The notes below the pieces were generated by a model. The model did not search any database and had not been told where the DNA came from. It saw only the letters and a program-made list of their open reading frames with translations. From NCBI RefSeq assembly GCF_009936135.1, contig NZ_CP047901.1:475643-539642 (forward strand): a stretch of 64,000 bases of DNA, written 5' to 3'. Made by a program: the position numbers and the translations under genes. Below, in pieces: positions 23,581 to 41,787 of this stretch. Each line of letters starts with the position of its first letter. The stretch's first letter is position 1. The stretch comes from Candidatus Chazhemtobacterium aquaticus. GTDB lineage: Bacteria > Patescibacteriota > Microgenomatia > UBA1400 > Chazhemtobacteraceae.

Positions 23581-25113
23581 TTACTTCTTTCCGTCTACTC
23601 TGTTTGCCTCAGTCAAGTTAAAGATGTGTTGTCTTACTCTTCGTACCGCCCTCCAGCCATAGGTAAACAGGAACTGCCAGTCTTTTTTCTTGAATGTCTT
23701 TAAGTAAGTGATCTGTCTCCACAAGAATTTAGGATGGAAAGCAATGGAGTACATCTCCCTGATGGCTTGGTAATATCGCTCGTGAGGTAGGGGAGTCTTG
23801 ACGATTAGCTTACTCATATCAAAGTCATCATAATCGTCAGTCAGTAGTACTCCTTTGTTAATACACTCCTGGTGGTAAGGGGTGTAATCAAGTGGTGTAC
23901 ACAAAGTTACCTGCAGAGTCCGAGCCAGTCCTGAGAACATCAGGTACTTCACATAATCAATGGTTTCAGAGAGCATTTTCTCAGTCTCCCAGTAATAGCC
24001 CACCATGATAGTCAGGTGAGGGTGTAGTCCAGCCTCCGTCATCCACTTCAAAGCTCTCTCAATGTATTTCTTCTGATATCCTTTGTTTAATCTTTTTAAT
24101 GTCTCATCACTCCCTGATTCAAGGCCGATTAATACAAAGCGGAAGTTAGCCTTAGCCATCAGCTCTATCGTTTCCTTATCAAGATACTCAAAGCGAGTAT
24201 TCAAACCAAAATAACACCCTTTTTTGTGAAGTCCTCGATCAATGATCCCCTGGGCAAACTTTCTGGCATCCTCGCCCCTATACCACACCCCCGAGTCATC
24301 AAAAATCTCTTTTACTCCATACTCGTTAATAAGTCTTTCATACTCATCCAGAGATCTCTCCACCGACATCTTCGAGAAGGTCATCTCCGGCCCGTTGTAT
24401 CTACAAAAAGTACACTTGCCAAACATGCAGTCTCGAATCACGCTGGTGGCATATGTTCCAGGAGTTTGCAGGAAGTTACCGTTCTCGTACGCGTAGTTTT
24501 TCCAATTCACTAAGTCACGGTCAATCAAAGGCGACTTATTTAATGGCTCTACCTGACGGAAGTTGCCCGTATCCCGATACTTACTCCCTCTTACTCTAAT
24601 GGTTAACCCTTCGATCTTGCAGGATCTTCTCCAGTCCTTATTACTCTCCAAGTAGGGGATCAGCCGATGCAACACAAAATCAATATGGTTGCTTTTAAGC
24701 ACAATATCCGTCTTGCTGTGATCAAGCGTCTCCTCAGGCTTTCTCATCGAGTGGTAGCCTGACATGATAAAGATGGTTTTGGGTAGCTTTTTGTTAAGTT
24801 CGTTTATCGTCTTCCAGTAAAACTTCATTACCGGAGTCGTACTCTCAAACACCACTACATCTGGTTGCCATCTGACCAAGTCACTAAACCATTTCTCATA
24901 GGTCTTTAACTGGGCATTGCCATCATCCCACCTCACGTTATATCCCATCTGCTTAAGCCAGGTTGCTGCCTGAGCCTGGACAACTGGTAGTAGGTAAGTC
25001 GGAGTCTTGAAATACTGCACATTGCGGTTCTGAGACACCATTGCCTTCTGCCCCAGCTTGTTAACAATTGGGGGATACGAGATGGCGATTTTTAGTTTCT
25101 TTTTTCTAGCCAT
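23581..25113 (-). CDS. B12-binding-domain radical SAM enzyme (class-B rSAM, probable methyltransferase or other radical tailoring enzyme).
   Basis: N-terminal Rossmann-like B12-binding-type domain (KIAISYPPIVNK...). Cys triad RDCMFGKCTFCRY has unusual Cx4Cx2C spacing. A long C-terminal domain follows. Confidence 0.5.
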   Translation of the reverse strand: MARKKKLKIAISYPPIVNKLGQKAMVSQNRNVQYFKTPTYLLPVVQAQAATWLKQMGYNVRWDDGNAQLKTYEKWFSDLVRWQPDVVVFESTTPVMKFYWKTINELNKKLPKTIFIMSGYHSMRKPEETLDHSKTDIVLKSNHIDFVLHRLIPYLESNKDWRRSCKIEGLTIRVRGSKYRDTGNFRQVEPLNKSPLIDRDLVNWKNYAYENGNFLQTPGTYATSVIRDCMFGKCTFCRYNGPEMTFSKMSVERSLDEYERLINEYGVKEIFDDSGVWYRGEDARKFAQGIIDRGLHKKGCYFGLNTRFEYLDKETIELMAKANFRFVLIGLESGSDETLKRLNKGYQKKYIERALKWMTEAGLHPHLTIMVGYYWETEKMLSETIDYVKYLMFSGLARTLQVTLCTPLDYTPYHQECINKGVLLTDDYDDFDMSKLIVKTPLPHERYYQAIREMYSIAFHPKFLWRQITYLKTFKKKDWQFLFTYGWRAVRRVRQHIFNLTEANRVDGKK

Positions 25114-25117
25114 ATTT

Positions 25118-25804
25118 TTAGAAAAATACCTCCGTTACTATATTACTTCCATTTATCCCAGCCTCACTTAAGATATCATAGACGTCGTTGATCATCTCAC
25201 TGTTACCGCACAAGTAGTATCGGGCTCTCTTGTCGATTTTGTTTGACCTTAAATACTCCGTTACTCTACCGCTAAAGTCTCCACCCTTTTCTCTTGACAC
25301 ACAGGCTACATATCGGTTTTTGGCATAGTCCTTGCGGTCATACTGCTCGTTTGCATATCTGATTCCATGGATGATCTGGTAATCAAGTTTAGGGTATGTC
25401 TTAACAAAGGAATGGAATGGAGCTATTCCTGTTCCAGTAGCAATCAGGATATGTTTTTGATTTAACTTCTTCTCGTCTAAGGTAAATAGGCCATAAGCTC
25501 CATCAAGAGACACCTTATTTCCTGGTTTGAGTTTAGAGAGCCTAGGAGTTACTGCGCCACCCTCGACTGTCTTAATCAAGAACTCTAGCTTGTCATCATT
25601 GGGGGATGAGTAGCTGGAGTACTCGCGGTTAATCGCTTCATTTACCAAACCAATGTTGACACATTGACCGGGGATGAATTTAAAGTTTTTCTTCTCAATC
25701 TGGAGTACAAAAGCTGAATCAGTCAAATGTCTTATACCCAATACCTTATGAGTTCCTTGTTGTCTGCCGTACTCTATTGTTTGCATACACATGCATTCTA
25801 TCAC
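25118..25804 (-). CDS. FAD/NAD(P)H oxidoreductase of the ferredoxin-NADP reductase (FNR) family.
   Basis: RxYS-type FAD-binding motif (NREYSSYSS) and an NAD(P)-binding GTGIAPF motif. 228 aa. Lies 4 nt upstream of the rSAM gene on the same strand. Confidence 0.55.
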   Translation of the reverse strand: MIECMCMQTIEYGRQQGTHKVLGIRHLTDSAFVLQIEKKNFKFIPGQCVNIGLVNEAINREYSSYSSPNDDKLEFLIKTVEGGAVTPRLSKLKPGNKVSLDGAYGLFTLDEKKLNQKHILIATGTGIAPFHSFVKTYPKLDYQIIHGIRYANEQYDRKDYAKNRYVACVSREKGGDFSGRVTEYLRSNKIDKRARYYLCGNSEMINDVYDILSEAGINGSNIVTEVFF

Positions 25805-25848
25805 CCTCGTCTCAATTGGTCTCGTTCTTGTACCATTTTTGAGCTAAA

Positions 25849-26697
25849 ATGATCCTTATGAAATCCGCTCTCCCATTAGTCTCCGTGGTTATTACCACCA
25901 AGAACGAGGAAAAACACATTGTCTCTTGTCTTAAGTCCATCAAGAATCAGGACTATCCTCGGGAGAAAATTGAGATAATCGTTGTTGACAACCACTCTAC
26001 TGATGACACTGTCAAACTAGCCAAGCAATACACCAAGAACATTTTCACCAAAGGTCCAGAGAGGTCAGCTCAGAGAAACTATGGCATGATCACCAAGAGT
26101 CACGGTCAGTACGTCATGTACGTAGACGCTGATATGGAGTTAAGTAAAAAAGTTATATCTTCATGTGTTTCCAAAGTTACTAAAAATCCTGACATCATTG
26201 GTTTGTATATTCGAGAGATAGTTACTGGGGACAGCTACTGGAGTAAGGTCAGGCGTTTTGAACGCAGTTTCTATGAGGGTACGGTTATAGACTGCGTTAG
26301 GTTTATTAAAAAGTCTGCTTTTGTAAAAGTAAAAGGTTTTGATAAACAAATAACCGGCGGTGAAGATTGGGATCTGGACAAAAAAATCCGTCAACTTGGG
26401 AAAGTTGATTTAATAAAACAGCCTATCTATCACAATGAAGCTGAGTTTAACCTAAAGAAGTATCTGGCTAAAAAAAGTTACTATTCGAAAGGTCTTGACA
26501 TATATATTAAAAAGTGGGGAAAAGATGACCCTGATGTTAAGAAACAGTTCAGCCCCATATACAGGTTAGTAGTGGTGTTTTTAGAAAGAGGAAAATGGCA
26601 AAAACTACTACACCAACCAAGACTAGTGTTGGGTATGGCCTTATTAAGGATTGGAGTAGGATTCTCCTATGTTAAGCATCAGGTTATTTCGAAATAA
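25849..26697 (+). CDS. Glycosyltransferase family 2.
   Basis: LVSVVITTKNEEKHIVSCLKSIKNQDYPREKIEIIVVDNHSTDDT...YVDADM. Confidence 0.7.
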   Translation: MILMKSALPLVSVVITTKNEEKHIVSCLKSIKNQDYPREKIEIIVVDNHSTDDTVKLAKQYTKNIFTKGPERSAQRNYGMITKSHGQYVMYVDADMELSKKVISSCVSKVTKNPDIIGLYIREIVTGDSYWSKVRRFERSFYEGTVIDCVRFIKKSAFVKVKGFDKQITGGEDWDLDKKIRQLGKVDLIKQPIYHNEAEFNLKKYLAKKSYYSKGLDIYIKKWGKDDPDVKKQFSPIYRLVVVFLERGKWQKLLHQPRLVLGMALLRIGVGFSYVKHQVISK

Positions 26698-26706
26698 TTT
26701 CCAAAT

Positions 26707-27861
26707 ATGAGAAAACAAACAACGCCGAATATATCTTCACCAAGCAAAACAACAGTTTTGCAGACCGCTCATGTTACAAAGGTTTATGGACCAGTTCAAT
26801 CACTAGCAAAATTCATATCAGAAAAAAAGCGCTTTGATTTTTATCAAATAATTCATCCACTTAACAACAATGCCTCTCCAGAGTCTGTTTTTTTACGAAA
26901 CGGCAAAAAAATTAGTGAAGTTAGGATAAACACATATTCCATATTCCGCTACTTCCTAGATTTTATTATCACCTCATACTGGCTATTTAAACTACCCAAG
27001 AAAATAGATGTCGGATTCGGTATGAATAGCTTTGATACGCTTCCCTTGGTGATTTTTCGCCACAAGATAAACAAAATCGTATTTTTTAACACCGACTTCG
27101 CCAGAAACAGATTTAATAACAAACTAATTAATTCAATATATGTATCCATTGATAAATATTGCGCCCAGAAAGCAGATCTGGTTTGTTGTAATACAAACAG
27201 GACCATCGACGCCAGGATTGATGAAGGAATAAATAAAAACAAACTACTTTTAACGCCGAATGGCGTCGATTTTGACAAAATCGGAAAAATCAAGCCAAAA
27301 ACAAAATACAGTAAATCGCTCATATATGTCGGCTACCTTTCAAAAGAGCATGGACTTCAGACGGTAATAAAAGAATTACCCAAACTAGATCTGAAGCTTA
27401 TCGTTATAGGTAGCGGAGAATACGAGCGGAAACTTAAAAATCTGGTAAAAAAATTAAACCTCGACGACTCAGTCACGTTTTTGGGAAATCTTAAGCATCA
27501 GCAAGTTATCAATATATTGAAAAAATTTGGGGGCTTTGGATTAGCTCCATACAACAACAGTAGTGAATGGACTTACTATTGCGATCCAGTTAAAATTAAA
27601 GAATATCTTGCTTGCTACGTACCAGTTATCATTTCCTCAAGACCTGAAGTTAGTGAAACCATTGCTAGAGAAAAATTAGGATTTAGATATACAAATGAAG
27701 ATGAAATTAAAACAATCCTGGAGAAAGTTAGGAAAATGTCAGAAAAGGAATACAAAGAAACTCAGGAGAATATTAGCAAGTTTCGTAACGAATTTAACTT
27801 AAACACTATTTATCAAAATATTTGGCAAAGAATAAATCAGCCCGTATACACACATGAGTAA
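26707..27861 (+). CDS. Glycosyltransferase family 4-like (GT-B), very AT-rich.
   Basis: C-terminal GT-B half with IYVGYLSKEHGLQ...GFGLAPY...KEYLACYVPVI. GC about 33%. Confidence 0.55.
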   Translation: MRKQTTPNISSPSKTTVLQTAHVTKVYGPVQSLAKFISEKKRFDFYQIIHPLNNNASPESVFLRNGKKISEVRINTYSIFRYFLDFIITSYWLFKLPKKIDVGFGMNSFDTLPLVIFRHKINKIVFFNTDFARNRFNNKLINSIYVSIDKYCAQKADLVCCNTNRTIDARIDEGINKNKLLLTPNGVDFDKIGKIKPKTKYSKSLIYVGYLSKEHGLQTVIKELPKLDLKLIVIGSGEYERKLKNLVKKLNLDDSVTFLGNLKHQQVINILKKFGGFGLAPYNNSSEWTYYCDPVKIKEYLACYVPVIISSRPEVSETIAREKLGFRYTNEDEIKTILEKVRKMSEKEYKETQENISKFRNEFNLNTIYQNIWQRINQPVYTHE

Positions 27862-28525
27862 AACAATAAGAAATTTGCAAGGCGGAGATAACAACTTACC
27901 TGATGATTTGTACAAGCTGACAAGTCACTGGATCAAAGACGGAGATAGCATATTAAACTTAGGTTGTGGAAGCCAGTTCAATTTTGAAAAAATAATTTCA
28001 AAAGAAAAAGATGTTCAAATCACATCAATAGACATTGTCTCGACAAATAAACCATCATATGTCAATCGATTCGTTACTAAAGATGTAGAAAAACCATTTT
28101 CCCTAAACAAAAAGTACGATGTTGTTACTTTTTTTGAACTGATCGAACACATAGATAATACTGATGTTCTCTTAAGGAACTGCTATCGAAACCTTAAAAA
28201 TAATGGTCTACTTATTTTTTCCTTTCCTAATCTCGCCTCTTTGTATTCACGTATAGAATTATTACTCGGTTACCAACCCCATATTCTTGAGATAAGCAAT
28301 GAAAAAGCCAATCTTGGTACCGGTATTTTTGGAAGAATTAATAATCCCGACGACAATCCAATACATCACATAAGAGGGATTACACACAATGCGATGAAAG
28401 ATATGGTGCATTTTCACAAATTTAAAATATTAAGCATGATAGGTTATGAGTATCGGTTAGGGAAAATATTCAAACACTTTCCGTCCCTGGCTCCTGTCAA
28501 TATTTTTATTCTTAAGAAATTATAA
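27854..28525 (+). CDS. Class I SAM-dependent methyltransferase.
   Basis: Motif I ILNLGCGSQ and motif II/III DVVTFFELIEHIDN...NGLLIFSFP. Confidence 0.65.
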   Translation: MSKTIRNLQGGDNNLPDDLYKLTSHWIKDGDSILNLGCGSQFNFEKIISKEKDVQITSIDIVSTNKPSYVNRFVTKDVEKPFSLNKKYDVVTFFELIEHIDNTDVLLRNCYRNLKNNGLLIFSFPNLASLYSRIELLLGYQPHILEISNEKANLGTGIFGRINNPDDNPIHHIRGITHNAMKDMVHFHKFKILSMIGYEYRLGKIFKHFPSLAPVNIFILKKL

Positions 28526-28627
28526 ATATTTATCGTCAGAATAGCGAAATAAACATGTCCGTACTCTGGTTAATTAAGAACTCGATCAAGCTAGACTTGC
28601 TATTTATCAAAATAAGCAAATAACCAT

Positions 28628-31600
28628 ATGGTCCAACCTTTAATAATTTTCTTTTCAATATTTCCTTTTTTCAAATTGTTAAACCTGGATGGTTTGATAG
28701 CCAATGTTGACTTCACCCAATTTTTTTTATTAAACACCAATTTTCTGGATCTATACCCATACGTTTGGAAGGATTACTTGTCTGGAATATTCAACTCAAT
28801 CTATATCATCAATTGGTCGTCTTTGGTCATCATATCTGCGGCATTGAAAGCAATAGGACTAAATACAGAAATGATTAACAGAGTATGGTTGGTTACTCCC
28901 TTCATACTATTCAATCTGTCAGTTTTTTATTTCATCAACAAACATTTTAAAAAATTTGGTTTCAACCGAAGGGATGTTCTTTTAATCGTTATGTTTACAG
29001 CCTACTCGTCTCCCACTGTCAACTTCCTTTCCTTTGGTTGGCAACAAATATATTTTTTACCTGCAGCTGCAACAATAATGTTGCTGGATAGTCTGATCAG
29101 TTTTTCTAAAAGTCTAGAAAAAAAATACCTGTTTGTCGCCGGAATACTATCAATATTCTCTGCACAACTTATGCACTTGTTTATCTTTGCTAACATCTGC
29201 TTCTTCTTGTATTTAGTCATCCTCGACAAACACCCAAAATACACCAAAATTAAGACTCTAGGTCATTGGTCATTTACCGCAATTTTCATCAATCTCTGGT
29301 GGGTTCTTCCGCTCATCGGCAATTTTGTTTTCAGTGAAATCGTCAATTATCGATACGATCCAATCACAGACCTGAACAATATAAAGAACATGGTCTCGTT
29401 CCAAGATGTCATTTTTCTTAACTCGGTCCACGGAACAACAACAGTACAGCAACACACTACCAGCAAAGTTAATCTAATAATCAGGACATCGTATTTTCTG
29501 GCATTTACCATCGGCTATCTCAAAGCAATCAAGACAAAAAAAACAAGAAAGATCAGTCTTACCCTGGGAGTTGCATTATTAGTCGTAATTTTTTTTAGCG
29601 CAGGCGCCCACCAACCCTTTGGATCACTATTTGTATGGGCATTTAAGAACATACCAATGTTTTACATGTTTAGAGATGTATCAAAATTTGGAATCTTTAT
29701 TGTGTTTATATACGGCATATTTATTACCTACCTCATTAAAACCAGAGAGAAACGTAAACGAAATATCGTCCATGTTGGCCTTTTGTTTTTAATTGCCATT
29801 ACATCGTTTCCGATGATCACCGGTAATTTGGGCGGCGATTTTCAAACCCTTGAATTGCCGGATGAATATCTTTCGACAAACATCTTAATTAACAAAGAAG
29901 AATTGGATGCGAAGCTGCTGGCCTTACCAATGCCAAGATGGACCTCTAAGTTTACCTGGATGGATGACGAGGAAAAAGGCTCACAAATATACAACCCGCT
30001 TTATACCATAACTAGCAATCCCATTATCTTTGACGAATTAAATAATACGGGATTAATACCACTACACACTGCAGCTCTTAATTCTATATGTGCGCAACAA
30101 AATAACGAAAATATATTTCTGTCACTTCTAAACATCAAGTACATCATTTTTCAAAAAGATCAACTAAACGAACCTCTTGGTTTTTGTCCTAACGAGCAGA
30201 TGCTCAAAAACGTCGACAAATTATTTACTAAGGTACGAGAGGCAGAATACATAAATCTATATCAGATTGCCGAGGACGAGTATTTACCGCACTTTTACAT
30301 TCCGGTTGAAACGGTTTATTCCACCAGTGAACTAGCATCAATATCAGAAATTCAACGACTTAATGACTACCAAACGCGAACAGCCTTTTTCTTTAAATCA
30401 AACGAAAGCACAGATAATAAGGTTATATCGCCAGACAAAACTGATTCTGTAGTCATAGAGGGGGTATTACTCGAACCCGCCAAGGATGCAATCGATGTCG
30501 AGGAAATCGCCAAAACAGAAATATTCTACCCACATGTAAAAAATAAGCCATCAAGTCCTAGATGGCACGTCGGCTTCATAAAAGAAAGATATGAACTGAG
30601 CAATATAAAAGACGTTAATAGCAAATTAGAAAAGAAACTTTTTTTTGCAAACAAACGCATAAGTGAGATTCAAAAATGGGGCAATATTTCTGTTGAAAAA
30701 TCACGGCCGTTATTCCGCGTATTTGGCCTTAAAGAACTGGAGAACCTACTTGATTTATGGCAATCACAAGTCCAACAATCAATAGATCTAGTCATTCAGG
30801 ATGAAGATAAGGGTAGAAAAGCAACGTTAGCAAAATTAATCAAAGAAAATTACTCTGATAATCTCAAGAAGCTGGCAGAACTTGGCCTCTCAGAATTGTC
30901 CACAGCGTCAATCAAGTCAGATTTTGATAGACAACTAAGTGTGTATCTACCAGAAACCGCAGTCGATCAGAAGTCATATCGACTTAATACCCCCATATCC
31001 GGAGAGTACTCTATATATCTTGAAACATTGAAAGACAAACCATACGCCTCTTTCATAAAAGAGATCTTGATTGATGATACAAAAATCGACATCAATCTTG
31101 TTGACAGCCCTGATCAGGATTACCAACATCTTGGAGAGGAGTATCTTGATTCAGGTGAACATACAATCACCCTCAAATTCAATAATGAAATTAACCTGTT
31201 GCCCGCAGAAAGGCAGCCTATCAATCTTGGCAACAAAAATAGGTTTAATTACCAAACCATTACGGATTGGTTACCAAACCAGTGGTACCAAGTGTCGGGC
31301 AACTACGAACTCAATAATGGCGGAGTCGAGCTTGCGATTGAAGAAGAAGTCTTAAAGAGCGACATCGACAAAGAGAGAGACAATGAGTCCACAAGTCAAA
31401 TAACGAAAAAGGTCGGCATCCCTCCTGGACAAGGCACGTTCAAGTATTACGTCAAATCGGGAAATGATCCAATATCAGGGGGTTTATCTATAGAAGTCGA
31501 CCTCAATGCCTCGGCGACAATAAATGATTTATCAGTAACTCCAATTTACGAACCCAAATTCATAATTAGGAGTCGGATGAACGAAAAGCCTAACAAGTCA

Positions 31601-32113
31601 AAACCGGTCATCGCCTTCCAGAGAATTAACCCAACAAAATATCGAGTTGAAGTAAGAAACGCCACCGAACCCTATCTTCTAGTATTTAGTGAAAACTATA
31701 ACAGAGGATGGAACGTTTTCAAGAAAGACGACGGCAACAATACCTCAATATCATTTTCTAAAGTTGTTGGTGATTTAGTTAGCGTCTTCCTTCACCGTCA
31801 TCCAGTAAAAGAAGTAGTTACAAGTTACTTCGATGGTGATATCAATGAATATAAGCACAGGACCACATTTCTTGAACCAGACACTTTTGAGACATGGGAT
31901 AAAAAACCCATTGCAACAGACCAACATTACCTAGCCAACAGCTATGCCAATTCATGGTACATATCACCTGACATGGTTGGAGGAGACACCGAATATGAGC
32001 TAATCATTGAATTTATCCCCCAAAGACTACTCTACATCGGTATCTTTATATCTGTAATATTCATATTGATTTTCATAATCTACATCGCTTTTCAGAAACT
32101 AATCAAAAAATAA
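28628..32113 (+). CDS. Giant (1161 aa) polytopic membrane protein with a roughly 750-aa extracytoplasmic domain and a C-terminal TM anchor; possibly a GT-C-like polymerase or transferase.
   Basis: About 12 N-terminal TM segments precede a large soluble region; the terminal TM is IGIFISVIFILIFIIYIAF. AT-rich. T8/A8 homopolymer tracts at 28721-28728, 29536-29543, 29589-29596 and 30639-30646. Confidence 0.55.
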   Translation: MVQPLIIFFSIFPFFKLLNLDGLIANVDFTQFFLLNTNFLDLYPYVWKDYLSGIFNSIYIINWSSLVIISAALKAIGLNTEMINRVWLVTPFILFNLSVFYFINKHFKKFGFNRRDVLLIVMFTAYSSPTVNFLSFGWQQIYFLPAAATIMLLDSLISFSKSLEKKYLFVAGILSIFSAQLMHLFIFANICFFLYLVILDKHPKYTKIKTLGHWSFTAIFINLWWVLPLIGNFVFSEIVNYRYDPITDLNNIKNMVSFQDVIFLNSVHGTTTVQQHTTSKVNLIIRTSYFLAFTIGYLKAIKTKKTRKISLTLGVALLVVIFFSAGAHQPFGSLFVWAFKNIPMFYMFRDVSKFGIFIVFIYGIFITYLIKTREKRKRNIVHVGLLFLIAITSFPMITGNLGGDFQTLELPDEYLSTNILINKEELDAKLLALPMPRWTSKFTWMDDEEKGSQIYNPLYTITSNPIIFDELNNTGLIPLHTAALNSICAQQNNENIFLSLLNIKYIIFQKDQLNEPLGFCPNEQMLKNVDKLFTKVREAEYINLYQIAEDEYLPHFYIPVETVYSTSELASISEIQRLNDYQTRTAFFFKSNESTDNKVISPDKTDSVVIEGVLLEPAKDAIDVEEIAKTEIFYPHVKNKPSSPRWHVGFIKERYELSNIKDVNSKLEKKLFFANKRISEIQKWGNISVEKSRPLFRVFGLKELENLLDLWQSQVQQSIDLVIQDEDKGRKATLAKLIKENYSDNLKKLAELGLSELSTASIKSDFDRQLSVYLPETAVDQKSYRLNTPISGEYSIYLETLKDKPYASFIKEILIDDTKIDINLVDSPDQDYQHLGEEYLDSGEHTITLKFNNEINLLPAERQPINLGNKNRFNYQTITDWLPNQWYQVSGNYELNNGGVELAIEEEVLKSDIDKERDNESTSQITKKVGIPPGQGTFKYYVKSGNDPISGGLSIEVDLNASATINDLSVTPIYEPKFIIRSRMNEKPNKSKPVIAFQRINPTKYRVEVRNATEPYLLVFSENYNRGWNVFKKDDGNNTSISFSKVVGDLVSVFLHRHPVKEVVTSYFDGDINEYKHRTTFLEPDTFETWDKKPIATDQHYLANSYANSWYISPDMVGGDTEYELIIEFIPQRLLYIGIFISVIFILIFIIYIAFQKLIKK

Positions 32114-32125
32114 ACAATTCAAATC

Positions 32126-33205
32126 ATGGCTAAACTCAAATCAGTATTTCCTCAACAACTCAAGAAATTGATATTAGTGCTGTTTATCTTAGGTTTTATC
32201 TATGACGTAGTCCTTCCCCTGCCAGTATCAGATTTATCGCTCCTGATCATAATAGCTTTGCTTGTTGGATCCGTCATTATGTGGAATATTGACGGAATGG
32301 TTTTAATCAAACACTCCGTCTGGCTAGCAATCCTTTGCTCAATATTTGCGATCCTAGAATATAACCGTATCTCGGAAAGACTAGCCATATGGTGGTATAT
32401 CTTTTTCACTGTTGGTGCTTTACATTTAACAGTCACCTATCGGCTAAAACCAGGCAAAAAATACTTGGATTCCAAACAACTAATTCAAGAAATCCTTCGT
32501 TCATATTCTCCCATTATTAAACTCAAACTTTCCGCCGTTAAATTAGCCCACCTTACCATTCCTGTCATCACCTTCACTCTCGAAGAAGTTAAAATTACCA
32601 ATCTTGTTCCGGCAATTCTTAACCTCACCAAGACATGCTCTGTTTTCCTTAGCTTATATCTAGTTTATTCTCTAGTATCCAATACCCTAAGCACCATAGA
32701 GGTATATCAAAGTTTTTACCCTTCAAACTCATTAAACTACTTTATCCAACAAACCGGACAATATGCAGCCATATCTTTATTAATTGGTATAGTAATCGGT
32801 CTTGGCCTATTTTTTGTTATCAAAAATCGCCGGACCCTAGCTTTCATCGTCACCCCCGCCTTATTGTTCTCTCTGTTTTTGATAACCAATTATGTTTACG
32901 TCCACACCACCCAGTTTCAGTACGATATCCGTCTTTGGTCAGTTAGCCCGAAAAAAGCCACGCTTTGGGATGAAATTAAACTATCTGGTCGCAATTTCCG
33001 TGACCTACCCTTTAAGGGCAAAGTCTATATTGATGGCGTTGAACACGCGATTACCTCCTGGACCGATAAGCAGATCGTTATTCAAGCCGACCCCACCAAG
33101 ACCAGCAGCGGAGAAATTAAGGTTATCGATTATTATGGCAAAGAGAGTGTAAACACTCTCCCAATAGAGTATTATGACTTTGAAACCAAAGAATTAATTG
33201 AATGA
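32126..33205 (+). CDS. Polytopic membrane protein with C-terminal IPT/TIG-like beta-sandwich domain.
   Basis: About 8 TM. The C-terminus (KATLWDEIKLSGRNF...KVYIDGVEHAITSWTDKQIVIQADP...SGEIKV) matches the IPT/TIG pattern. Confidence 0.45.
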   Translation: MAKLKSVFPQQLKKLILVLFILGFIYDVVLPLPVSDLSLLIIIALLVGSVIMWNIDGMVLIKHSVWLAILCSIFAILEYNRISERLAIWWYIFFTVGALHLTVTYRLKPGKKYLDSKQLIQEILRSYSPIIKLKLSAVKLAHLTIPVITFTLEEVKITNLVPAILNLTKTCSVFLSLYLVYSLVSNTLSTIEVYQSFYPSNSLNYFIQQTGQYAAISLLIGIVIGLGLFFVIKNRRTLAFIVTPALLFSLFLITNYVYVHTTQFQYDIRLWSVSPKKATLWDEIKLSGRNFRDLPFKGKVYIDGVEHAITSWTDKQIVIQADPTKTSSGEIKVIDYYGKESVNTLPIEYYDFETKELIE

Positions 33206-34581
33206 AGATAAACAAAGTCATCCTCCCCCTCATCCTGATTCTTTTTGCTCCTACTCTATTTAATTTTTTCTCTGCCGATGACTGGTTTCATCTGCGTTTA
33301 GCACAGATTAGTAGTATTACTGAGTTTCTCAGCTTCTTTTCATTCTCTGCCACTGCTCAGTCTGCTTCTTTCTATCGTCCTCTTTCCACCCAGGTCTTCT
33401 TCTTTATTTTCCATTCTCTCTTTGGTTTTAATACCTTCTTTTACTATCTCTTCGGGCTTCTTCTCTTTGTCCTTATACTCTTCCAGTTAAAAAACCTCGT
33501 TTCATCATTGTTTCCCAAAATTTCTCCAATCACAGCTCTTGTTGTTTATGGTTTCTCAGTTACTAACTTCACCAGGCTTTATTTCCTCTCCGCCTATCAA
33601 GAACTCTTCATGGTTCTTTTCGCCCTGCTGGCTCTTAACGCTCACCTTCGCTCTCAAGGAAAGAAAACCTTATTGTTCTTCATTCTCGCCTTGTTAAGTA
33701 AAGAGACTGCCGTAGTCATACCCGGTCTCATCCTCCTTATAGATCTCTATCAGGGCAAATTAAAGTTAAGCAAATACCTACCCATCTTCTTACTTACTAC
33801 TGTCTATCTATATCTTCGTCTTTTCCATTTTGGCTTGGCAGAAGGGGATACGTACATCTGGGACTTTTCACCCAAAATGGCTCTTAATACCCTAATGTGG
33901 TATACCCTTTGGTCTTTTGGTGCACCTGAGCTTTTAGTTGATTACATAGGTGGGGGACTAAGACCCATTCCTCGTTTCTACACCGACTATCCTTTCTTCT
34001 CTTACTTCATTCTTTTCTTTTTGTTAATTCTTCTTGGGTCTTTCACCTTTCTTATATTCCGCTCTCTAAAGAAAAACCTGCGTCAATATCTTTTTACTGG
34101 CCTGTTCTTTGTTGTCCCTCTCCTTCCCGTTCTCTTTCTTCCTCACCACAAGTTTACCCTTGAGTTAGGTCTGCCTTTAGTTGGTTTTTCTCTTCTTTTT
34201 GCTTTAGTTGCTGATTCAGCTAAGGGTAAATGGGGGACTCTCCTACTTGGCTTGTTTTTAATTCTTAATCTCTCCATGAACTATCTCACCTATACCCGTC
34301 ACTACTCGGTCAATCGCTCTCGCTTATCTCATCGACTCTATGACTATCTCACCACCCAATATCCTCAGTATCCATCCAATCCCCTTTATTTCACCGATCC
34401 GGAAAATGCTGGCCGATTTGAAGATTACGCCAAGCAGCTCTCTCTTGCTACCTCTAGGGCTGATATGTTCCAGGTCATCTACAATGATCCTAATCTGGTT
34501 GTTTACTATGATGGGGTCAACCAGCCGCCAGAAGACCAGCCAGTTATTAAGATCAAAGCTCAAGACTTCTTTACCCGATGA
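33202..34581 (+). CDS. Polytopic membrane protein, GT-C-like (DDWFHL subfamily, related to the 2333-4006 protein).
   Basis: N-terminal FSADDWFHLRLAQ after TM1 and FYRPLS. At least 10 TM. Confidence 0.5.
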   Translation: MKINKVILPLILILFAPTLFNFFSADDWFHLRLAQISSITEFLSFFSFSATAQSASFYRPLSTQVFFFIFHSLFGFNTFFYYLFGLLLFVLILFQLKNLVSSLFPKISPITALVVYGFSVTNFTRLYFLSAYQELFMVLFALLALNAHLRSQGKKTLLFFILALLSKETAVVIPGLILLIDLYQGKLKLSKYLPIFLLTTVYLYLRLFHFGLAEGDTYIWDFSPKMALNTLMWYTLWSFGAPELLVDYIGGGLRPIPRFYTDYPFFSYFILFFLLILLGSFTFLIFRSLKKNLRQYLFTGLFFVVPLLPVLFLPHHKFTLELGLPLVGFSLLFALVADSAKGKWGTLLLGLFLILNLSMNYLTYTRHYSVNRSRLSHRLYDYLTTQYPQYPSNPLYFTDPENAGRFEDYAKQLSLATSRADMFQVIYNDPNLVVYYDGVNQPPEDQPVIKIKAQDFFTR

Positions 34582-36203
34582 AACTTAAAAAAACTCACCT
34601 TATTTTACTTGTCATTCTTGTCGTCTCCTTCTTTCTTCGTTTTTATCGTTTAGATCAAAACCTGCCAGAGATTTATGCCGATGAAACAGGACACTATATC
34701 CTTCTTCACCAGCCATCTCTCTACCATCGTATTTTTTCATTTACATGGTTCCTAGGTCTTAATCCTTTAGGAGTCAGAGCGGCTGCAGCATTTTATAGCT
34801 CACTCATCTCTCTGGCCATCTTTTTGCTTGCTAGCCGTCTTTCAAAAAATCAAGCGGTTCCCTTTGTTGCCGCGATCATAAGTGTATTTCTACCCTGGAC
34901 CTTTCTCATTGGCCGTATTGGTCACAGCCACATTCCCTTATTGGTCATCACCAGCACCCTCTCTGCTTACTTTTTCCTAAGCAAGTCAAAATCAAGTTAC
35001 CTCCTTTCTCTTTTGTTCCTCCTAGTCTCTGCTTACCTTTACCAATCAGCCCTTGTTATTGCCCCCTTTGTCTTTCTGCTTACTGGTTATTACCTGTATC
35101 GCTCCCTTAAACCTAAACAACGCCGCCTTGGTCTTTTGGCCGTTGCTATTTCCTTTTTGGTTGTTGGTGTCTTGTTCGTTACTCGTTTTCAAGGACTCTC
35201 TTTATCAGGCCGAGGTCTTGATCTGGCCATCTGGCGTGATCCTAATACTACTCACTTTAGTGATAAGTATCGCGCCCTTTCTTGGGTATCCAAGCCAAGC
35301 TTGTTTAGTTTTTGGTTACCTACTGAAACATTAGCCGCTCCTTTAGTTTACAACCGCTTGACTGCCAACCTCTCCATTTTTACTCGCAACTATCTCTCTT
35401 TCTTTTCTCCCGACTTCCTTTTCTTAAAAGGTGATCCGATCCTGCGTCACTCCACCGGCCAGTTTGGCGTCTTCTATCCCTTTCTCTTACCCCTCATTCT
35501 CTATGGTGCATATCGCTTCTTCTTGACTGCCCCACCCAAAGCTCGTCACCTTTTCTTAGTTTGGATTCTTGCCTCCCCGCTACCTGCCGCCATCACTAAG
35601 GATGGCTCTGGCTACCTGCTTCGTGTCATCACTCTACTTCCTTTCCTTACTTACTTTGCTGCTCTTGGTATCACCGACTCCCTATCTTGGTTTAAAACGA
35701 AATGGTTAAGACTTTTGTATGTCTTAGGTCTTTCTCTAGTTGGCATCTATTCCGCTTATGCCTTTTTCTTCTCATATTTCCACGTCTATCCATATCAGCT
35801 TGAGACCGCCAGAAGTTATGAGTATGGCTTTAAAGCCCTTTCTGACTTTCAAGTAGAGAATGACGGAGCTTCTCTTCTGATTGTTTGGGATGGTCACTAT
35901 CCTCAGTACCACTTCTATTTCTGGCAAAAGTTACCAGAGTCAGATTACCGAGAGTTAGTGTTTGAAGATATTGTAGTGGGGGAGTCCCACTTCTATCACC
36001 CCGCCCCCAATCTCTACTTTGTTAATCCCTACACCACCAGTGATGTACTTGAGTTTATTGATATGCACCAACCTAATTATCTGGTTCTACCAGATCGTTA
36101 CTTCGTTAAATATCCAACAGATCTAGTCCCAGAGGATGAGCAGCCGGTCAAGCAGATTCTCTATCCCACTGGTGAGGTTGCCTTCTCTATCTACTCTCTC
36201 TAG
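34578..36203 (+). CDS. GT39/PMT/ArnT-like GT-C membrane glycosyltransferase (paralog 5).
   Basis: LRFYRLDQNLPEIYADETGHY; C-terminal YEYGFKAL domain similar to the other paralogs. 4-nt overlap with the upstream gene. Confidence 0.65.
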   Translation: MKLKKTHLILLVILVVSFFLRFYRLDQNLPEIYADETGHYILLHQPSLYHRIFSFTWFLGLNPLGVRAAAAFYSSLISLAIFLLASRLSKNQAVPFVAAIISVFLPWTFLIGRIGHSHIPLLVITSTLSAYFFLSKSKSSYLLSLLFLLVSAYLYQSALVIAPFVFLLTGYYLYRSLKPKQRRLGLLAVAISFLVVGVLFVTRFQGLSLSGRGLDLAIWRDPNTTHFSDKYRALSWVSKPSLFSFWLPTETLAAPLVYNRLTANLSIFTRNYLSFFSPDFLFLKGDPILRHSTGQFGVFYPFLLPLILYGAYRFFLTAPPKARHLFLVWILASPLPAAITKDGSGYLLRVITLLPFLTYFAALGITDSLSWFKTKWLRLLYVLGLSLVGIYSAYAFFFSYFHVYPYQLETARSYEYGFKALSDFQVENDGASLLIVWDGHYPQYHFYFWQKLPESDYRELVFEDIVVGESHFYHPAPNLYFVNPYTTSDVLEFIDMHQPNYLVLPDRYFVKYPTDLVPEDEQPVKQILYPTGEVAFSIYSL

Positions 36204-36233
36204 ACAGAAAGAGGCAATACCATCAAGGACTTT

Positions 36234-36935
36234 CTAGTTACCCTTACGCCCCGTTTTTCTTAAAAGTAACAGTGAAATGGTTTCTTCTCGCAATTTCGCT
36301 CTTGCCCAATCTTTTCTTCCTTCGCTTAATAACTCTCCCACCCCGTCCAAAATCTTCCGTGCACTCAGCTTTTCCAACTTGTTAACACACTCGTCTATCA
36401 CTTTATCAAAGGGCATCCCCGCTCTTTGTTCGACGATATCTTGATTAATCGGAAACCTGTTCTCAAGGAAAAACCAAACATCATAAATATCTCTACTTGT
36501 TTTGCCGATCCTTTCATACATCGCCATCAGTTTATGGGCAAACATGTCCTCAGGAACCATTACCAACATCGACACTCCCAAGTACGTTTTTACCTCATAT
36601 CTCGACCCAAACTGTATCTTGTTAATCTCAATCTTAATATTATGTGCCCTGTCTTCGTAGGAGAGTAGGCAAAAAAGATTATGCCGCTTCATATGCGAAT
36701 CCTTCAACTTGCCGTGTCTCTGTACTATTTCCACCACTTTTTCAAAAACCTCTTTCTCGTTACTGTCATCAAGTAGATCAAAATCCAAATCAACCGAAAA
36801 ACGGTCCAACCCGTGGTACATCATTGCCGCCGTTCCTCCTTTAAAACCCAAGTAAGGGGAGACATTAGTATCCGAATAGATATCTTTCAAGATTTGAAAC
36901 AATATCGTCTTGTGTAAGGTCTTATCTAATGTCAT
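36234..36935 (-). CDS. abiEii: AbiEii/AbiGii-family nucleotidyltransferase toxin (type IV toxin-antitoxin / abortive infection).
   Basis: GFKGGTAAMMYHGLDRFSVDLDFDL matches the DUF1814/AbiEii nucleotidyltransferase motif (GGTAL...R.S.DIDF). The start ATG overlaps the stop of the upstream gene (ATGA). Confidence 0.75.
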   Translation of the reverse strand: MTLDKTLHKTILFQILKDIYSDTNVSPYLGFKGGTAAMMYHGLDRFSVDLDFDLLDDSNEKEVFEKVVEIVQRHGKLKDSHMKRHNLFCLLSYEDRAHNIKIEINKIQFGSRYEVKTYLGVSMLVMVPEDMFAHKLMAMYERIGKTSRDIYDVWFFLENRFPINQDIVEQRAGMPFDKVIDECVNKLEKLSARKILDGVGELLSEGRKDWARAKLREETISLLLLRKTGRKGN

Positions 36936-37522
36936 TGTACACCTTGATCTTTAGTCTCCTTGCGTATTTGCCTTACCTTCTTAGTCAATCTTTTATTGTC
37001 ATAGATTGGCAGTAAAGACTCGACTGTATCCCAGTTAACCGACCTTAAGTTATCAAAGTGATAATCTGTCTTGCTATACAACACGTCTAAAAAAGCTCGT
37101 TCTCGGCTGGCTATCCACAGATTTTCTTGTTGCATAACCCCATCTGTATTAGTCAAGACCGAATCCTTTATCTTTCGATATTCATATTTCTGGCCGTCCA
37201 TCACAATCTCCCTAGTTAGGTATGACGCTACTGTAATTGAGTCCTGATACTGAAAAATCAAGCCCTCCCTAGCCAATACCGTTTCAAAGCTTACATACGC
37301 AGGTGTAAACACTCTCACCGCCAGCTCCAACTTGTCATAGTTTTTATCTTTGACATACACCCCTCTGCGAACCCTATGCAGACTACCACTCCTTACGTAA
37401 TAGTTTAACCTCGCCCTGATCGAATCGTCATCACCCTCTTGCCACAAAAGCGCCACGTCCTTAAGTGTGAACACTGTTTTTTCAGATCTTAAGATACTAT
37501 CCAGATACTCACCTTTATTCAT
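36932..37522 (-). CDS. abiEi: AbiEi-family antitoxin/transcriptional regulator.
   Basis: N-terminal wHTH region with LHRVRRGVYV. Its position and the ATGA overlap with abiEii are typical of AbiE operons. Confidence 0.7.
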   Translation of the reverse strand: MNKGEYLDSILRSEKTVFTLKDVALLWQEGDDDSIRARLNYYVRSGSLHRVRRGVYVKDKNYDKLELAVRVFTPAYVSFETVLAREGLIFQYQDSITVASYLTREIVMDGQKYEYRKIKDSVLTNTDGVMQQENLWIASRERAFLDVLYSKTDYHFDNLRSVNWDTVESLLPIYDNKRLTKKVRQIRKETKDQGVQ

Positions 37523-37625
37523 TATTTAAACTAAATGTTAGGTTTAATACAACTTATGGTTCAAATATAGACTAAATAAAACAATTCTGTCAAGCGAATG
37601 TTAAGCTCACACACTTGTCTAAATA

Positions 37626-39425: not shown

Positions 39426-39476
39426 ATCATACCTTTTAATAACACTAATTTTTCTTGTTAGGATATAATCCAACCC

Positions 39477-40502: not shown

Positions 40503-40526
40503 TTCCCCACCTGCTAGAATCAAACT

Positions 40527-41768: not shown

Positions 41769-41787
41769 AAATGATTTAATAATATAT

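What the first reader, a model, noticed from the sequence alone, without database searches (positions are those of the whole stretch)
26707..33205. AT-rich sub-island encoding a giant 1161-aa membrane protein with huge extracytoplasmic domain plus an IPT/TIG-domain membrane protein
GC drops to about 33-38% across 26707-33205 (GT4-like, methyltransferase, 1161-aa protein, 359-aa IPT-domain protein). That compositional break inside the locus implies a separately acquired module. The 1161-aa protein has about 12 N-terminal TMs, a roughly 750-aa outside domain and a C-terminal TM anchor. That architecture is reminiscent of very large GT-C polymerases (AftD/YfhO-like), with no recognisable family motif. 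Its coding sequence carries four A8/T8 homopolymer tracts. The first (T8, 28721-28728) is only about 95 nt into the ORF, a classic position for slipped-strand phase variation of a surface-structure gene.
Basis: seen in the sequence. Interest (0 to 1): 0.6.

Follow-up and report, generated by a model that had tools for sequence, protein, structure and literature searches.

The report
Swappable surface-sugar cassette with giant glycosyltransferase
This AT-rich stretch is a strain-variable gene cassette in the tiny genome of the bacterium Candidatus Chazhemtobacterium aquaticus, and its 1161-residue membrane protein is a distant relative of the mycobacterial cell-wall enzyme AftD that most likely adds sugars to a surface polymer; I found no evidence that it is switched on and off by slippage at its A/T runs.

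Summary
The compositional break is real. Comparison with related strains places it at 25805-32436, not 26707-33205. Related contigs match the window on both flanks (96% and 89.5% DNA identity) but carry an unrelated cassette in between.

The right-hand junction lies inside the "IPT" gene, so that protein is a chimera.

The cassette also lacks the extreme C-over-G strand bias of this genome (Ca. Chazhemtobacterium aquaticus, Microgenomates), which points to recent import.

The 1161-aa protein is a GT-C glycosyltransferase of the AftD/YfhO group:
- The family profile hits AftD by sequence (E 6.5e-17).
- The acidic residue of the first outer loop (D28) is conserved, as are R349 and K353, which align with AftD R357 and K361.

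The family is large (7,483 clusters) and is found mainly in CPR bacteria and archaea.

New here: a roughly 110-aa, four-helix membrane protein with no Pfam family is encoded directly next to these GT-C genes in 44 of 78 loci. In the window it forms the N-terminus of the IPT protein.

Phase variation is unsupported. There are five tracts, not four. Counts of runs of 7 or more match expectation. All four assemblies compared carry the same tract lengths.

The parts
25805..32436 (+). Strain-variable glycan cassette: the segment with no DNA similarity to related contigs L082/L083. It is AT-rich and lacks the host's strand bias.
   Evidence: blastn of L082/L083 against the window: the flanks 23597-25804 (96%) and 32437-36194 (89.5%) match and nothing matches in between. 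Composition.
25849..26697 (+). GT2 (GT-A fold) glycosyltransferase, the first gene of the cassette.
   Evidence: Pfam Glycos_transf_2, E 1.5e-23. It is not specifically like GtrB or DPMS. GC3 skew is -0.06, z +4.5.
26707..27861 (+). GT4 (GT-B fold) glycosyltransferase.
   Evidence: Pfam Glycos_transf_1, E 4e-19. A GT4 gene sits directly upstream of family GT-C genes in L003 and L004.
27854..28525 (+). Class I SAM-dependent methyltransferase.
   Evidence: Pfam Methyltransf_23, E 1e-15. A 61%-identical homolog lies directly upstream of a family GT-C in L008, a Bathyarchaeia locus.
28555..28620 (+). Remnant (first 22 codons) of an FkbM-family methyltransferase gene. Relative to strains L081, L001 and L002, 816 bp have been deleted.
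   Evidence: L081 carries a 285-aa Methyltransf_21 gene at this position. The junction sequences were compared directly. L001/L002 encode the same FkbM C-terminus upstream of the GT-C gene.
28628..32113 (+). 1161-aa GT-C glycosyltransferase of the AftD/YfhO group (QHO63500.1, MICH65_0519).
28628..29821 (+). Membrane-embedded GT-C core (aa 1-398, about 11 helices). It contains D28 (codon 28709-28711) in the first outer loop, and R349 (29672-29674) and K353.
   Evidence: Secondary structure of the model. The D28 column is acidic in 36 of 38 sequences and the R349 column is basic in 38 of 38. Alignment to AftD R357 and K361.
29822..32017 (+). Extracytoplasmic region (aa 399-1130): an alpha/beta GT-C soluble domain, a helical bundle (aa ~618-771), CBM-like beta-sandwiches, and a conserved C-terminal beta domain (motifs INPTKY and NSYANSW).
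32018..32110 (+). C-terminal transmembrane anchor (aa 1131-1161).
   Evidence: Hydropathy 3.11. Helix 1131-1160 in the model. Conserved PQRLxYxG motif.
28721..28728 (+). T8 tract 1 (codons Q-F-F-L, aa 31-34).
   Evidence: Same length in L001, L002 and L081.
29118..29125 (+). A8 tract 2 (E-K-K).
29536..29543 (+). A8 tract 3 (T-K-K-T).
29589..29596 (+). T8 tract 4 (I-F-F-S).
30639..30646 (+). In L081 it is interrupted (TATTTTTT).
32126..33205 (+). 359-aa chimeric membrane protein: a cassette-borne four-helix module, then three more helices, then an outside IPT/TIG domain.
   Evidence: Pfam TIG, E 1.4e-4, aa 272-334. Identity to P0180 is 22% over aa 1-104 and 81% over aa 105-359. DNA junction at 32436/32437.
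32126..32455 (+). Small four-helix membrane module (aa 1-~110). It is homologous to the 105-125-aa proteins encoded next to family GT-C genes elsewhere.
   Evidence: phmmer first-pass hits, E 7e-12 to 1e-6. Adjacency statistics. Alignment A6 with SD and AEKxAxW motifs. No Pfam or PDB sequence match.
32918..33202 (+). IPT/TIG (Ig-like) domain, predicted to lie outside the membrane (aa 265-359). It is part of the conserved resident flank.
   Evidence: Pfam TIG. Beta strands at 268-358 in a low-confidence model. Near-identical in the 553-aa homologs.
23581..25804 (-). Conserved left flank: a B12-binding radical SAM enzyme (23581-25113) and an FNR-like flavin reductase (25118-25804).
   Evidence: Pfam. 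96% DNA identity to L082/L083.
33202..36203 (+). Conserved right flank: two polytopic membrane proteins (459 and 541 aa), probably PMT_2-like GT-C enzymes.
   Evidence: 92% and 94% aa identity in L082. 47% and 41% aa identity, in synteny, in the Shapirobacteria locus L012. Weak NCBIfam Pmt hit.

Best explanation
The region is a replaceable glycan-biosynthesis cassette. It sits inside a surface-glycan locus of more than 60 kb in Ca. Chazhemtobacterium aquaticus, a Microgenomates (CPR) bacterium.

Cassette content: a GT2, a GT4, a SAM methyltransferase, the remnant of a second (FkbM) methyltransferase, a 1161-aa GT-C glycosyltransferase, and the first ~104 codons of the next gene.

Origin (inferred): the cassette arrived by recombination between conserved flanks, the radical-SAM/reductase pair on the left and the IPT gene on the right. 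It arrived recently enough that it has not yet taken on the host's extreme strand bias.

The giant protein, shown: it is a homolog of mycobacterial AftD and of Gram-positive YfhO.

The giant protein, inferred: it takes a sugar from a polyprenyl-phosphate-linked donor at the outer face of the membrane, using the D28 / R349 / K353 site. It transfers that sugar to a polymeric surface glycan or glycoprotein, which is held by its CBM-like beta-sandwich domains.

The cytoplasmic GT2, GT4 and methyltransferase (inferred): they build or modify the donor or the acceptor repeat.

The small four-helix protein, shown: it is genetically coupled to this GT-C family across CPR bacteria and archaea. Here it is fused to the resident IPT/TIG protein.

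The small four-helix protein, inferred: it is a dedicated membrane partner of the GT-C, either a subunit that delivers or flips the donor or a structural subunit.

The A/T runs are a by-product of AT-rich codons for Phe-Phe and Lys-Lys, not a switch.
For: Cassette:
- The flanks match related contigs and 25805-32436 does not.
- The IPT protein is 22% identical to P0180 before residue 104 and 81% after it.
- Identity to strain L081 is mosaic, 81-100% per 500-nt bin, and the window has an 816-bp deletion of the FkbM gene.
- Third-position skew z-scores are +2.1 to +4.5. The genome-wide disparity of C 29.8% against G 15.0% is published (PMC7143001).

GT-C identity:
- The model has pLDDT 76.8 and pTM 0.69.
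- Foldseek hits are AftD 3.9e-13, then STT3, AftA, PglB and ArnT.
- The profile hits AftD by sequence, E 6.5e-17.
- 12 of 38 family members match Pfam GT-C_AftD.
- hhalign against YfhO gives E 2e-24.
- D28 is acidic in 36 of 38 sequences. R349 is basic in 38 of 38 and aligns with AftD R357. K353 aligns with AftD K361, which is essential in AftD.

Conserved context:
- GT4 and methyltransferase genes lie next to family GT-C genes in L003, L004 and L008.
- The small module is present in 63 of 78 loci and directly adjacent in 44 of 78, with a modal overlap of 4 nt.
- L078 encodes a natural fusion of the module to a GT-C.
Against: - No biochemical data exist for any member of this family. Donor, acceptor and linkage are unknown.
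- The cassette's GT2 shows no specific similarity to polyprenyl-phosphate sugar synthases such as GtrB, CsbB or DPMS. The source of a lipid-linked donor is therefore not identified.
- AftD E251 and D474/E475 have no clearly conserved counterparts in this family.
- D28 aligns two residues away from AftD D41 in the HMMER alignment.
- The weak NCBIfam hit is to MmpA, an AftD-like protein proposed to be non-catalytic.
- The small module has no detectable similarity to GtrA, to SMR proteins or to the C-terminal helix bundle of AftD, and its structure model was too poor to use.
- No donor lineage for the cassette was identified.
Confidence: 0.72

Rival explanations
1. The giant gene is a phase-variable surface-structure gene. 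Slipped-strand mispairing at the A8/T8 tracts, especially the T8 tract 93 nt into the ORF, would switch the protein on and off.
For: - Five of the window's six A/T runs of 8 or more lie in this one ORF.
- Synonymous-codon shuffling expects 1.9 such runs, P about 0.02.
- The first tract is near the 5' end, and the gene sits in a strain-variable surface-glycan cassette.
Against: - Runs of 7 or more match expectation, 5 against 4.2, P 0.41.
- All tracts encode Phe-Phe or Lys-Lys with AT-rich codons, and the neighbouring cassette genes are also full of A7/T7 runs.
- Tract lengths are identical and in frame in the window, L001, L002 and L081. In L081 one tract is broken by a substitution with no consequence for the reading frame.
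- All ten full-length members of the 90% cluster are 1161 aa.
- Known contingency loci usually use longer A/T tracts or G/C tracts (my own knowledge).
Confidence: 0.06
2. The giant protein has the GT-C fold but is not catalytic. It would act as a membrane scaffold or lipid/glycolipid delivery factor, as proposed for the AftD-like protein MmpA.
For: - The only NCBIfam hit is MmpA, E 8.9e-6, below the family cut-off.
- MmpA shares homology with the N-terminal part of AftD and lacks recognised catalytic motifs (PMC8698533).
- Counterparts of AftD E251 and D474/E475 are not clearly conserved.
Against: - The first-loop acidic residue, the hallmark of GT-C catalysis, is conserved in 36 of 38 sequences.
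- The equivalents of R357 and K361 are conserved.
- The large CBM-like ectodomain resembles that of AftD, which binds glycans.
- The gene sits among glycosyltransferase genes in every locus examined.
Confidence: 0.12
3. The AT-rich composition only reflects the amino-acid make-up of membrane proteins and local mutational noise. Nothing was acquired separately.
For: - The giant and IPT proteins are rich in Phe, Ile, Leu and Lys.
- Other low-GC patches exist in the window, at 1159-1827 and 10462-11238.
Against: - The soluble GT2, GT4 and methyltransferase are the most AT-rich genes of the stretch.
- The anomaly is seen at third codon positions and in skew, not only in GC.
- A closely related lineage has a different gene set at exactly this place, with sharp homology breakpoints.
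Confidence: 0.03
4. The small four-helix protein is a general lipid-linked-sugar flippase, analogous to GtrA, GtcA or ArnE/F. It would complete a classical three-component system (GT2 makes the donor, the flippase moves it, the GT-C transfers it) and would not be a fixed subunit of the GT-C.
For: [quoted passage not shown]
- The cassette contains a GT2.
- The module lies next to the GT-C gene in 44 of 78 loci.
Against: - It has no sequence similarity to GtrA, EamA or SMR families.
- In tandem arrays each GT-C paralog tends to have its own copy with overlapping stop and start codons, whereas known GtrA-type flippases serve several GT-Cs and are often unlinked.
- The GT2 is not GtrB-like.
- The module is fused to varied domains: FkbM, LytR_C, IPT, and a GT-C itself.
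Confidence: 0.25

Closest known systems
AftD (mycobacterial arabinofuranosyltransferase D; Pfam GT-C_AftD PF11847, formerly DUF3367; PDB 6W98)
   Same: - Significant profile-to-sequence match over the whole GT-C super-domain, E 6.5e-17.
- An N-terminal core of about 11 helices, then a very large outside region with several CBM-like beta-sandwiches, then a return into the membrane.
- Equivalents of AftD R357 and K361 are conserved.
   Different: - Only about 9-12% identity.
- The window protein itself scores below the Pfam cut-off (E 0.06).
- It ends after a single C-terminal helix and lacks AftD's extra four-helix membrane bundle that binds acyl carrier protein.
- It has a helical-bundle insert at aa ~618-771.
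- AftD E251 and D474/E475 are not clearly conserved.
- It occurs in CPR bacteria and archaea, which make no arabinogalactan.
- It is paired with a separate small four-helix protein.
YfhO (Pfam PF09586), the GT-C of the CsbB/GtcA/YfhO teichoic-acid glycosylation systems
   Same: - Profile-profile match of 99.6% probability, E 2e-24, over 548 columns covering the membrane core and the first outside domain. This includes the first-loop Asp and the P.F..FR motif.
- A C-terminal membrane anchor.
- RefSeq names the protein "YfhO family protein".
- It works in a gene neighbourhood with a GT-A enzyme and a small membrane protein.
   Different: - No member of the sampled family reaches Pfam YfhO at E <= 0.01.
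- The ectodomain is about 400 residues longer.
- The small partner is not a GtrA/GtcA homolog.
- The adjacent GT2 is not CsbB-like.
Serotype-determining O-antigen or capsule cassettes, replaced by recombination in conserved flanks
   Same: Conserved flanking genes, a central block of unrelated glycosyltransferase and modification genes with lower GC, mosaic identity between strains, and gene loss within the block.
   Different: - It is seen here in an 0.8-Mb CPR genome.
- One junction lies inside a gene and creates a chimeric protein.
- The variable enzyme is an extracytoplasmic GT-C rather than a Wzy polymerase.
MmpA (NCgl2761 / Rv0226c)
   Same: - Weak NCBIfam match over aa 291-435, E 8.9e-6.
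- MmpA is itself related to the N-terminal part of AftD.
   Different: - The score of 24.6 is far below the family cut-off of 210.
- MmpA is about 474-543 aa with a single small outside domain.
- MmpA is restricted to the Corynebacterineae.

Membership tests
GT-C fold glycosyltransferases | Polytopic N-terminal membrane core with the GT-C helix arrangement, plus an outside soluble domain. | tested here: met
   [not shown]
GT-C fold glycosyltransferases | Conserved acidic residue in the first extracytoplasmic loop. | tested here: met
   The D28 column holds D in 31 and E in 5 of 38 sequences. It aligns with the conserved Asp of YfhO proteins and lies within two residues of AftD D41.
GT-C fold glycosyltransferases | Use of a polyprenyl-phosphate-linked sugar donor at the outer membrane face. 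| not testable with these tools
   Inferred from the fold only. No donor synthase was identified in the cassette.
AftD family (Pfam PF11847, GT-C_AftD) | Match to the family HMM above the curated cut-off. | tested here: not met
   The window protein scores E 0.061, 11.7 bits, against a cut-off of 26. However, 12 of 38 family members match (best E 3.2e-12), and the family profile hits AftD at E 6.5e-17.
AftD family (Pfam PF11847, GT-C_AftD) | Essential active-site residues K39, D41, E251, K361 and D474, and the invariant R357 (bioRxiv 10.1101/2019.12.22.885152). | tested here: inconclusive
   R349 aligns with R357 and K353 with K361. D28 is offset by two residues from D41. No conserved counterpart was found for E251 or D474/E475.
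AftD family (Pfam PF11847, GT-C_AftD) | Sixteen helices, including a C-terminal four-helix bundle that binds acyl carrier protein. | tested here: not met
   The protein ends after one C-terminal helix. Only 1 of 168 relatives has any extension beyond it.
YfhO family (Pfam PF09586) | Match to the family HMM. | tested here: not met
   The window protein has no hit at E <= 0.1, and none of 38 relatives hits at E <= 0.01. Remote homology is nevertheless clear by hhalign, E 2e-24.
Three-component / multi-component transmembrane glycosylation system (GT-A + GtrA-type flippase + GT-C) | A membrane-linked GT-A that makes a C55-P-sugar (GtrB/CsbB type). | tested here: inconclusive
   A GT2 is present, but its closest solved relatives are soluble GT-A enzymes, not GtrB or DPMS.
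Three-component / multi-component transmembrane glycosylation system (GT-A + GtrA-type flippase + GT-C) | A small GtrA-family flippase. | tested here: not met
   The small four-helix module has no Pfam match, GtrA included, at E <= 1 and no PDB sequence match. It resembles GtrA-type proteins only in size and topology.
Phase-variable contingency locus | A repeat tract whose length varies between or within populations and shifts the reading frame. | tested here: not met
   All five tracts have the same length in four assemblies. All ten cluster variants are full length. Read-level heterogeneity could not be tested.
Horizontally exchanged genomic island or cassette | Atypical composition, plus presence/absence or replacement polymorphism with defined breakpoints. 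| tested here: met
   Composition. Replacement in L082/L083 with breakpoints at 25804/25805 and 32436/32437.

The most novel reading that the evidence does not exclude
The giant GT-C and the uncharacterised ~110-aa four-helix membrane protein encoded next to it form a previously unrecognised two-protein machine for glycosylation outside the cell.

This machine would be widespread in CPR bacteria and archaea: the GT-C family has 7,483 50%-identity clusters and often occurs in tandem arrays of paralog pairs.

The small protein would be a dedicated subunit, either handing over the donor or standing in for the extra membrane bundle that AftD carries in one chain.

Wholesale exchange of these pairs, possibly across the bacteria-archaea boundary, would diversify the cell surface of these host-dependent ultra-small cells. 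In the window such an exchange even rebuilt a resident IPT-domain protein into a chimera.
Probability: 0.3. Interest if true: 0.6.

Novelty: new variant of a known kind. Interest (0 to 1): 0.42.

Why it matters
CPR bacteria such as Microgenomates have tiny genomes and are thought to live attached to other cells. This 0.8-Mb genome still spends more than 60 kb on surface-glycan genes.

Three points make the region useful:
- One block of that locus is swapped between near-identical strains, and the swapped block centres on a giant AftD-like enzyme. That points to surface-sugar diversity as a selected trait in these organisms, for host recognition or phage avoidance.
- The extreme strand bias of this lineage is a sensitive clock for spotting recent imports.
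- The tight pairing of this enzyme family with an unnamed four-helix protein gives a concrete, testable handle on thousands of unannotated genes in CPR bacteria and archaea.

The giant protein itself is not a new kind of enzyme. RefSeq already labels it YfhO-like.

Tried and rejected
- The word-indexed homology search found only 5 relatives, and 19 when given a profile. This wrongly suggested a rare protein. The exhaustive HMMER search showed 7,483 clusters.
- A first PDB sequence search with a 5-sequence profile found nothing. The 38-sequence profile later found AftD.
- No tRNA genes and no Rfam hits in the window, so no integration-site signal.
- Two Pfam scans failed on the residue limit.
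- The afdb50 fold library was unavailable.
The permitted 7-sequence alignment gave an unusable model, pLDDT 51.7, pTM 0.27. I therefore did not run a fold search on it, and I left untested the idea that the small module equals AftD helices 13-16 or a GtrA/SMR fold.
- I looked for GT-C relatives carrying the small module fused at their C-terminus and found none among 168. One relative (P0161) has extra C-terminal helices, but they do not match the module.
- I tested whether the cassette's GT2 is a GtrB/DPMS-type donor synthase and found no specific similarity.
- I considered that the GC dip is only a membrane-protein effect and rejected it.
- My third-position statistics for 32437-33205 were computed out of frame and are not used.

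Full report
SOURCE AND SETTING

The 1161-aa protein is 100% identical to QHO63500.1 (MICH65_0519, "hypothetical protein") of Candidatus Chazhemtobacterium aquaticus. RefSeq lists the same gene as a 1080-aa "YfhO family protein" that starts 81 codons later.

This organism is a Microgenomates (CPR) bacterium with a closed 801,504-bp genome. The genome paper describes an unusual strand disparity: 29.8% C against 15.0% G on one strand (PMC7143001). That explains the GC skew of -0.2 to -0.4 seen across the window.

Almost the whole 64-kb window encodes glycan-assembly functions. These include many GT2 and GT4 enzymes, PMT_2-like GT-C proteins, methyltransferases, Wzx-like flippases and a Wzy_C protein.

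CHECKING THE OBSERVATION

GC drops to 0.31-0.40 between about 25.8 and 33 kb.

The strand bias collapses in the same place. Host + strand genes have third-position C of 0.37-0.44 and A of 0.13-0.20. The cassette genes have C of 0.20-0.26 and A of 0.27-0.36. Against 42 other + strand ORFs, the cassette genes have GC3-skew z-scores of +2.1 to +4.5 and AT3-skew z-scores of +1.6 to +3.0.

The giant ORF has five A8/T8 tracts, not four.

THE CASSETTE AND ITS EDGES

Contigs L082 and L083, from two other metagenomes, belong to a close relative. They match the window at:
- 23597-25804 (96% DNA identity)
- 32437-36194 (89.5%)
- 37633-39435 (L082 only)
- 40496-41889 (L082 only)

Neither contig has any DNA similarity to 25805-32436. 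In that position they carry a different set of genes: an epimerase, a 334-aa GT2, a 209-aa methyltransferase, an 827-aa protein that shares the C-terminal domain of the giant protein, and the 5' part of a 553-aa IPT protein.

The left junction falls in the divergent intergenic region between the reductase gene and the GT2 gene.

The right junction falls inside the IPT gene. The window's IPT protein is 22% identical to the 553-aa form (P0180) over residues 1-104 and 81% identical over residues 105-359. It is therefore a chimera of cassette-borne and resident sequence.

A third strain, L081, carries the same cassette as the window. Its identity to the window is mosaic, from 81% to 100% per 500-nt bin. 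It also has an extra 285-aa FkbM-type methyltransferase gene between the methyltransferase and the giant gene. The window retains only the first 22 codons of that gene (28555-28620), after a clean 816-bp deletion. Contigs L001 and L002, which are 99.7% identical across the giant gene, also carry the FkbM gene.

In the alternative cassette of L082, the GT-C gene and the 5' IPT part show host-like skew. This suggests that the window's cassette is the more recent arrival. That last step is inference.

WHAT THE GIANT PROTEIN IS

Sequence searches at first looked empty. Pfam gave only GT-C_AftD at E 0.06, NCBIfam gave only MmpA below its cut-off, and the word-indexed search found five relatives.

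An exhaustive profile search then found 7,483 cluster representatives at E <= 1e-3 and 1,579 at E <= 1e-30. Many are full length, at 1,100-1,250 aa.

In a collection of species-representative genomes the family lies mostly in Patescibacteria, labelled Levy-, Shapiro-, Gottesman- and Collierbacteria, Saccharibacteria and Parcubacteria. It also occurs in archaea, labelled Bathyarchaeia, Methanoperedens and Nanoarchaeia.

The evidence that it is a GT-C enzyme of the AftD/YfhO group:
- Twelve of 38 relatives match Pfam GT-C_AftD, best E 3.2e-12.
- An AlphaFold2 model built on these 38 sequences has pLDDT 76.8 and pTM 0.69.
- Foldseek against the PDB ranks AftD first (E 3.9e-13), followed by STT3, AftA, PglB and ArnT.
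- The 38-sequence profile hits AftD directly by sequence, E 6.5e-17, across AftD residues 18-568.
- hhalign against six YfhO proteins gives 99.6% probability, E 2e-24.

The model shows, in order:
- about 11 membrane helices (aa 1-398)
- an alpha/beta domain (aa ~406-611)
- a helical bundle (aa ~618-771)
- a conserved C-terminal beta domain
- a final membrane helix

Active-site residues. D28, in the first outer loop, is D or E in 36 of 38 relatives. R349 is R or K in all 38 and aligns with AftD R357, which the AftD paper calls absolutely conserved. K353 aligns with AftD K361, which is essential by mutagenesis.

Limits of the match. AftD E251 and D474/E475 have no clear conserved counterparts. 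D28 sits two positions from AftD D41 in the HMMER alignment. The match of active sites is therefore partial.

Unlike AftD, this protein ends after one C-terminal helix and has no four-helix bundle.

THE SMALL PARTNER PROTEIN

I searched the ORFs of the fetched loci with the IPT protein. Its first ~110 residues are homologous to a 105-125-aa protein with four predicted helices that is encoded right beside family GT-C genes.

First-pass phmmer E-values reach 7e-12. The alignment shows conserved SD and AEKxAxW...G..Q motifs.

Of 78 loci, 63 contain the module and 44 have it directly adjacent on the same strand. The commonest spacing is a 4-nt overlap.

Several CPR genomes carry tandem arrays in which GT-C paralogs alternate with the small gene. 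One example is the locus L035, from a complete Levyibacteriota chromosome.

The module has no Pfam match and no PDB sequence match.

It occurs fused to several other domains:
- an FkbM methyltransferase (L046)
- a LytR_C domain (L057)
- IPT/TIG domains (the window, L034, L042, L037)
- in L078, the N-terminus of a family GT-C

I could not obtain a usable structure for it. Its role, whether dedicated subunit, donor flippase, or equivalent of AftD's extra bundle, stays open.

The known paradigm of a GT-A, a small 3-4-helix GtrA-type flippase and a GT-C (PMC8035078) is the nearest functional analogy. However, neither the small protein nor the cassette's GT2 passes a membership test for that system.

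PHASE VARIATION

All five tracts arise from Phe-Phe or Lys-Lys codons in an AT-rich gene.

Shuffling synonymous codons gives 4.2 runs of 7 or more against 5 observed (P 0.41). It gives 1.9 runs of 8 or more against 5 observed (P about 0.02). The neighbouring cassette genes also carry many A7/T7 runs.

All tract lengths are the same in the window, L001, L002 and L081. One tract in L081 is interrupted by a substitution. All ten full-length members of the 90% cluster are 1161 aa.

This argues against a switch. Only read-level data can settle it.

VERDICT

The compositional island is real. It is a recombination-swapped glycan cassette spanning 25805-32436.

The phase-variation idea is unsupported.

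The results that go beyond existing annotation are:
- the exact cassette junctions
- the chimeric IPT gene
- the FkbM gene remnant
- the conserved pairing of this GT-C family with an unnamed four-helix membrane protein

Noticed in passing
window 1-64000: The strong strand bias (GC skew -0.2 to -0.4) runs across the whole window and is mirrored in minus-strand genes (G3 0.29-0.36). This matches the published genome-wide disparity of Ca. Chazhemtobacterium aquaticus. In such a genome, loss of skew is a handy marker of recent imports.
   Followed up: yes
window 28555-28620: Remnant of an FkbM-family methyltransferase gene (first 22 codons). An 816-bp deletion relative to strains L081, L001 and L002 has its junction at a short GCAA repeat. 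The reference strain has probably lost one methylation step of its glycan.
   Followed up: yes
L081 7786-8868 (equivalent to window 32126-33205): In the 93%-identical strain the IPT gene carries an in-frame stop at codon 209 (Q209*). This splits it into 208-aa and 138-aa ORFs, while the downstream IPT part stays conserved.
   Followed up: partly
window 28628 versus 28871: RefSeq starts this gene at Met82 (1080 aa). That start would remove helix 1 and the conserved D28. Relatives align from residue 1, so the 1161-aa GenBank start is the better call.
   Followed up: partly
window 39436-40495 (gene 39477-40502): A gene resembling GDP-mannose 4,6-dehydratase, with host-like composition, is present in the window but absent from both related strains. 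L081 has 87 bp and L082 has 11 bp in its place.
   Followed up: partly
window 36195-37632 (genes 36234-36935 and 36932-37522, minus strand): An AbiEii/AbiEi toxin-antitoxin pair sits inside the glycan locus. It is present in L081 but replaced by other small genes in L082. This is a second variable spot, 4 kb from the cassette.
   Followed up: partly
window 1159-1827 and 10462-11238: Two further low-GC ORFs (GC 0.33 and 0.35) with no Pfam match. The first also has weak strand bias (GC3 skew -0.25, A3 0.34), so it may be another recent import.
   Followed up: no
L008 6433-13271; L079 6545-10499; L019 5706-10154: Among the fetched loci, the best matches to the cassette's methyltransferase (61% aa), GT2 (44%) and GT4 (34%) are in archaeal MAGs (Bathyarchaeia, Methanoperedens). 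Each lies next to a family GT-C. This hints at exchange of such cassettes between archaea and CPR bacteria.
   Followed up: no
L033 2173-15045; L035 91-12730 (CP066685 Levyibacteriota): Tandem arrays of three to four GT-C paralogs (about 800, 1250, 1260 and 650 aa) interleaved with one or two copies of the small four-helix gene. The window has only one family member.
   Followed up: partly
window 23581-25804 (minus strand): A B12-binding radical SAM enzyme and an FNR-like flavin reductase form the conserved left flank of the cassette (96% DNA identity in L082/L083). This is an unusual pair for a glycan locus and may modify a sugar.
   Followed up: no
P0180-P0185 (553-aa homologs of the IPT protein), aa 1-200: The resident form of the IPT protein in related strains has an extra N-terminal helix plus a beta-rich domain of about 170 aa with no Pfam match. 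The window's chimeric version lacks this domain.
   Followed up: no
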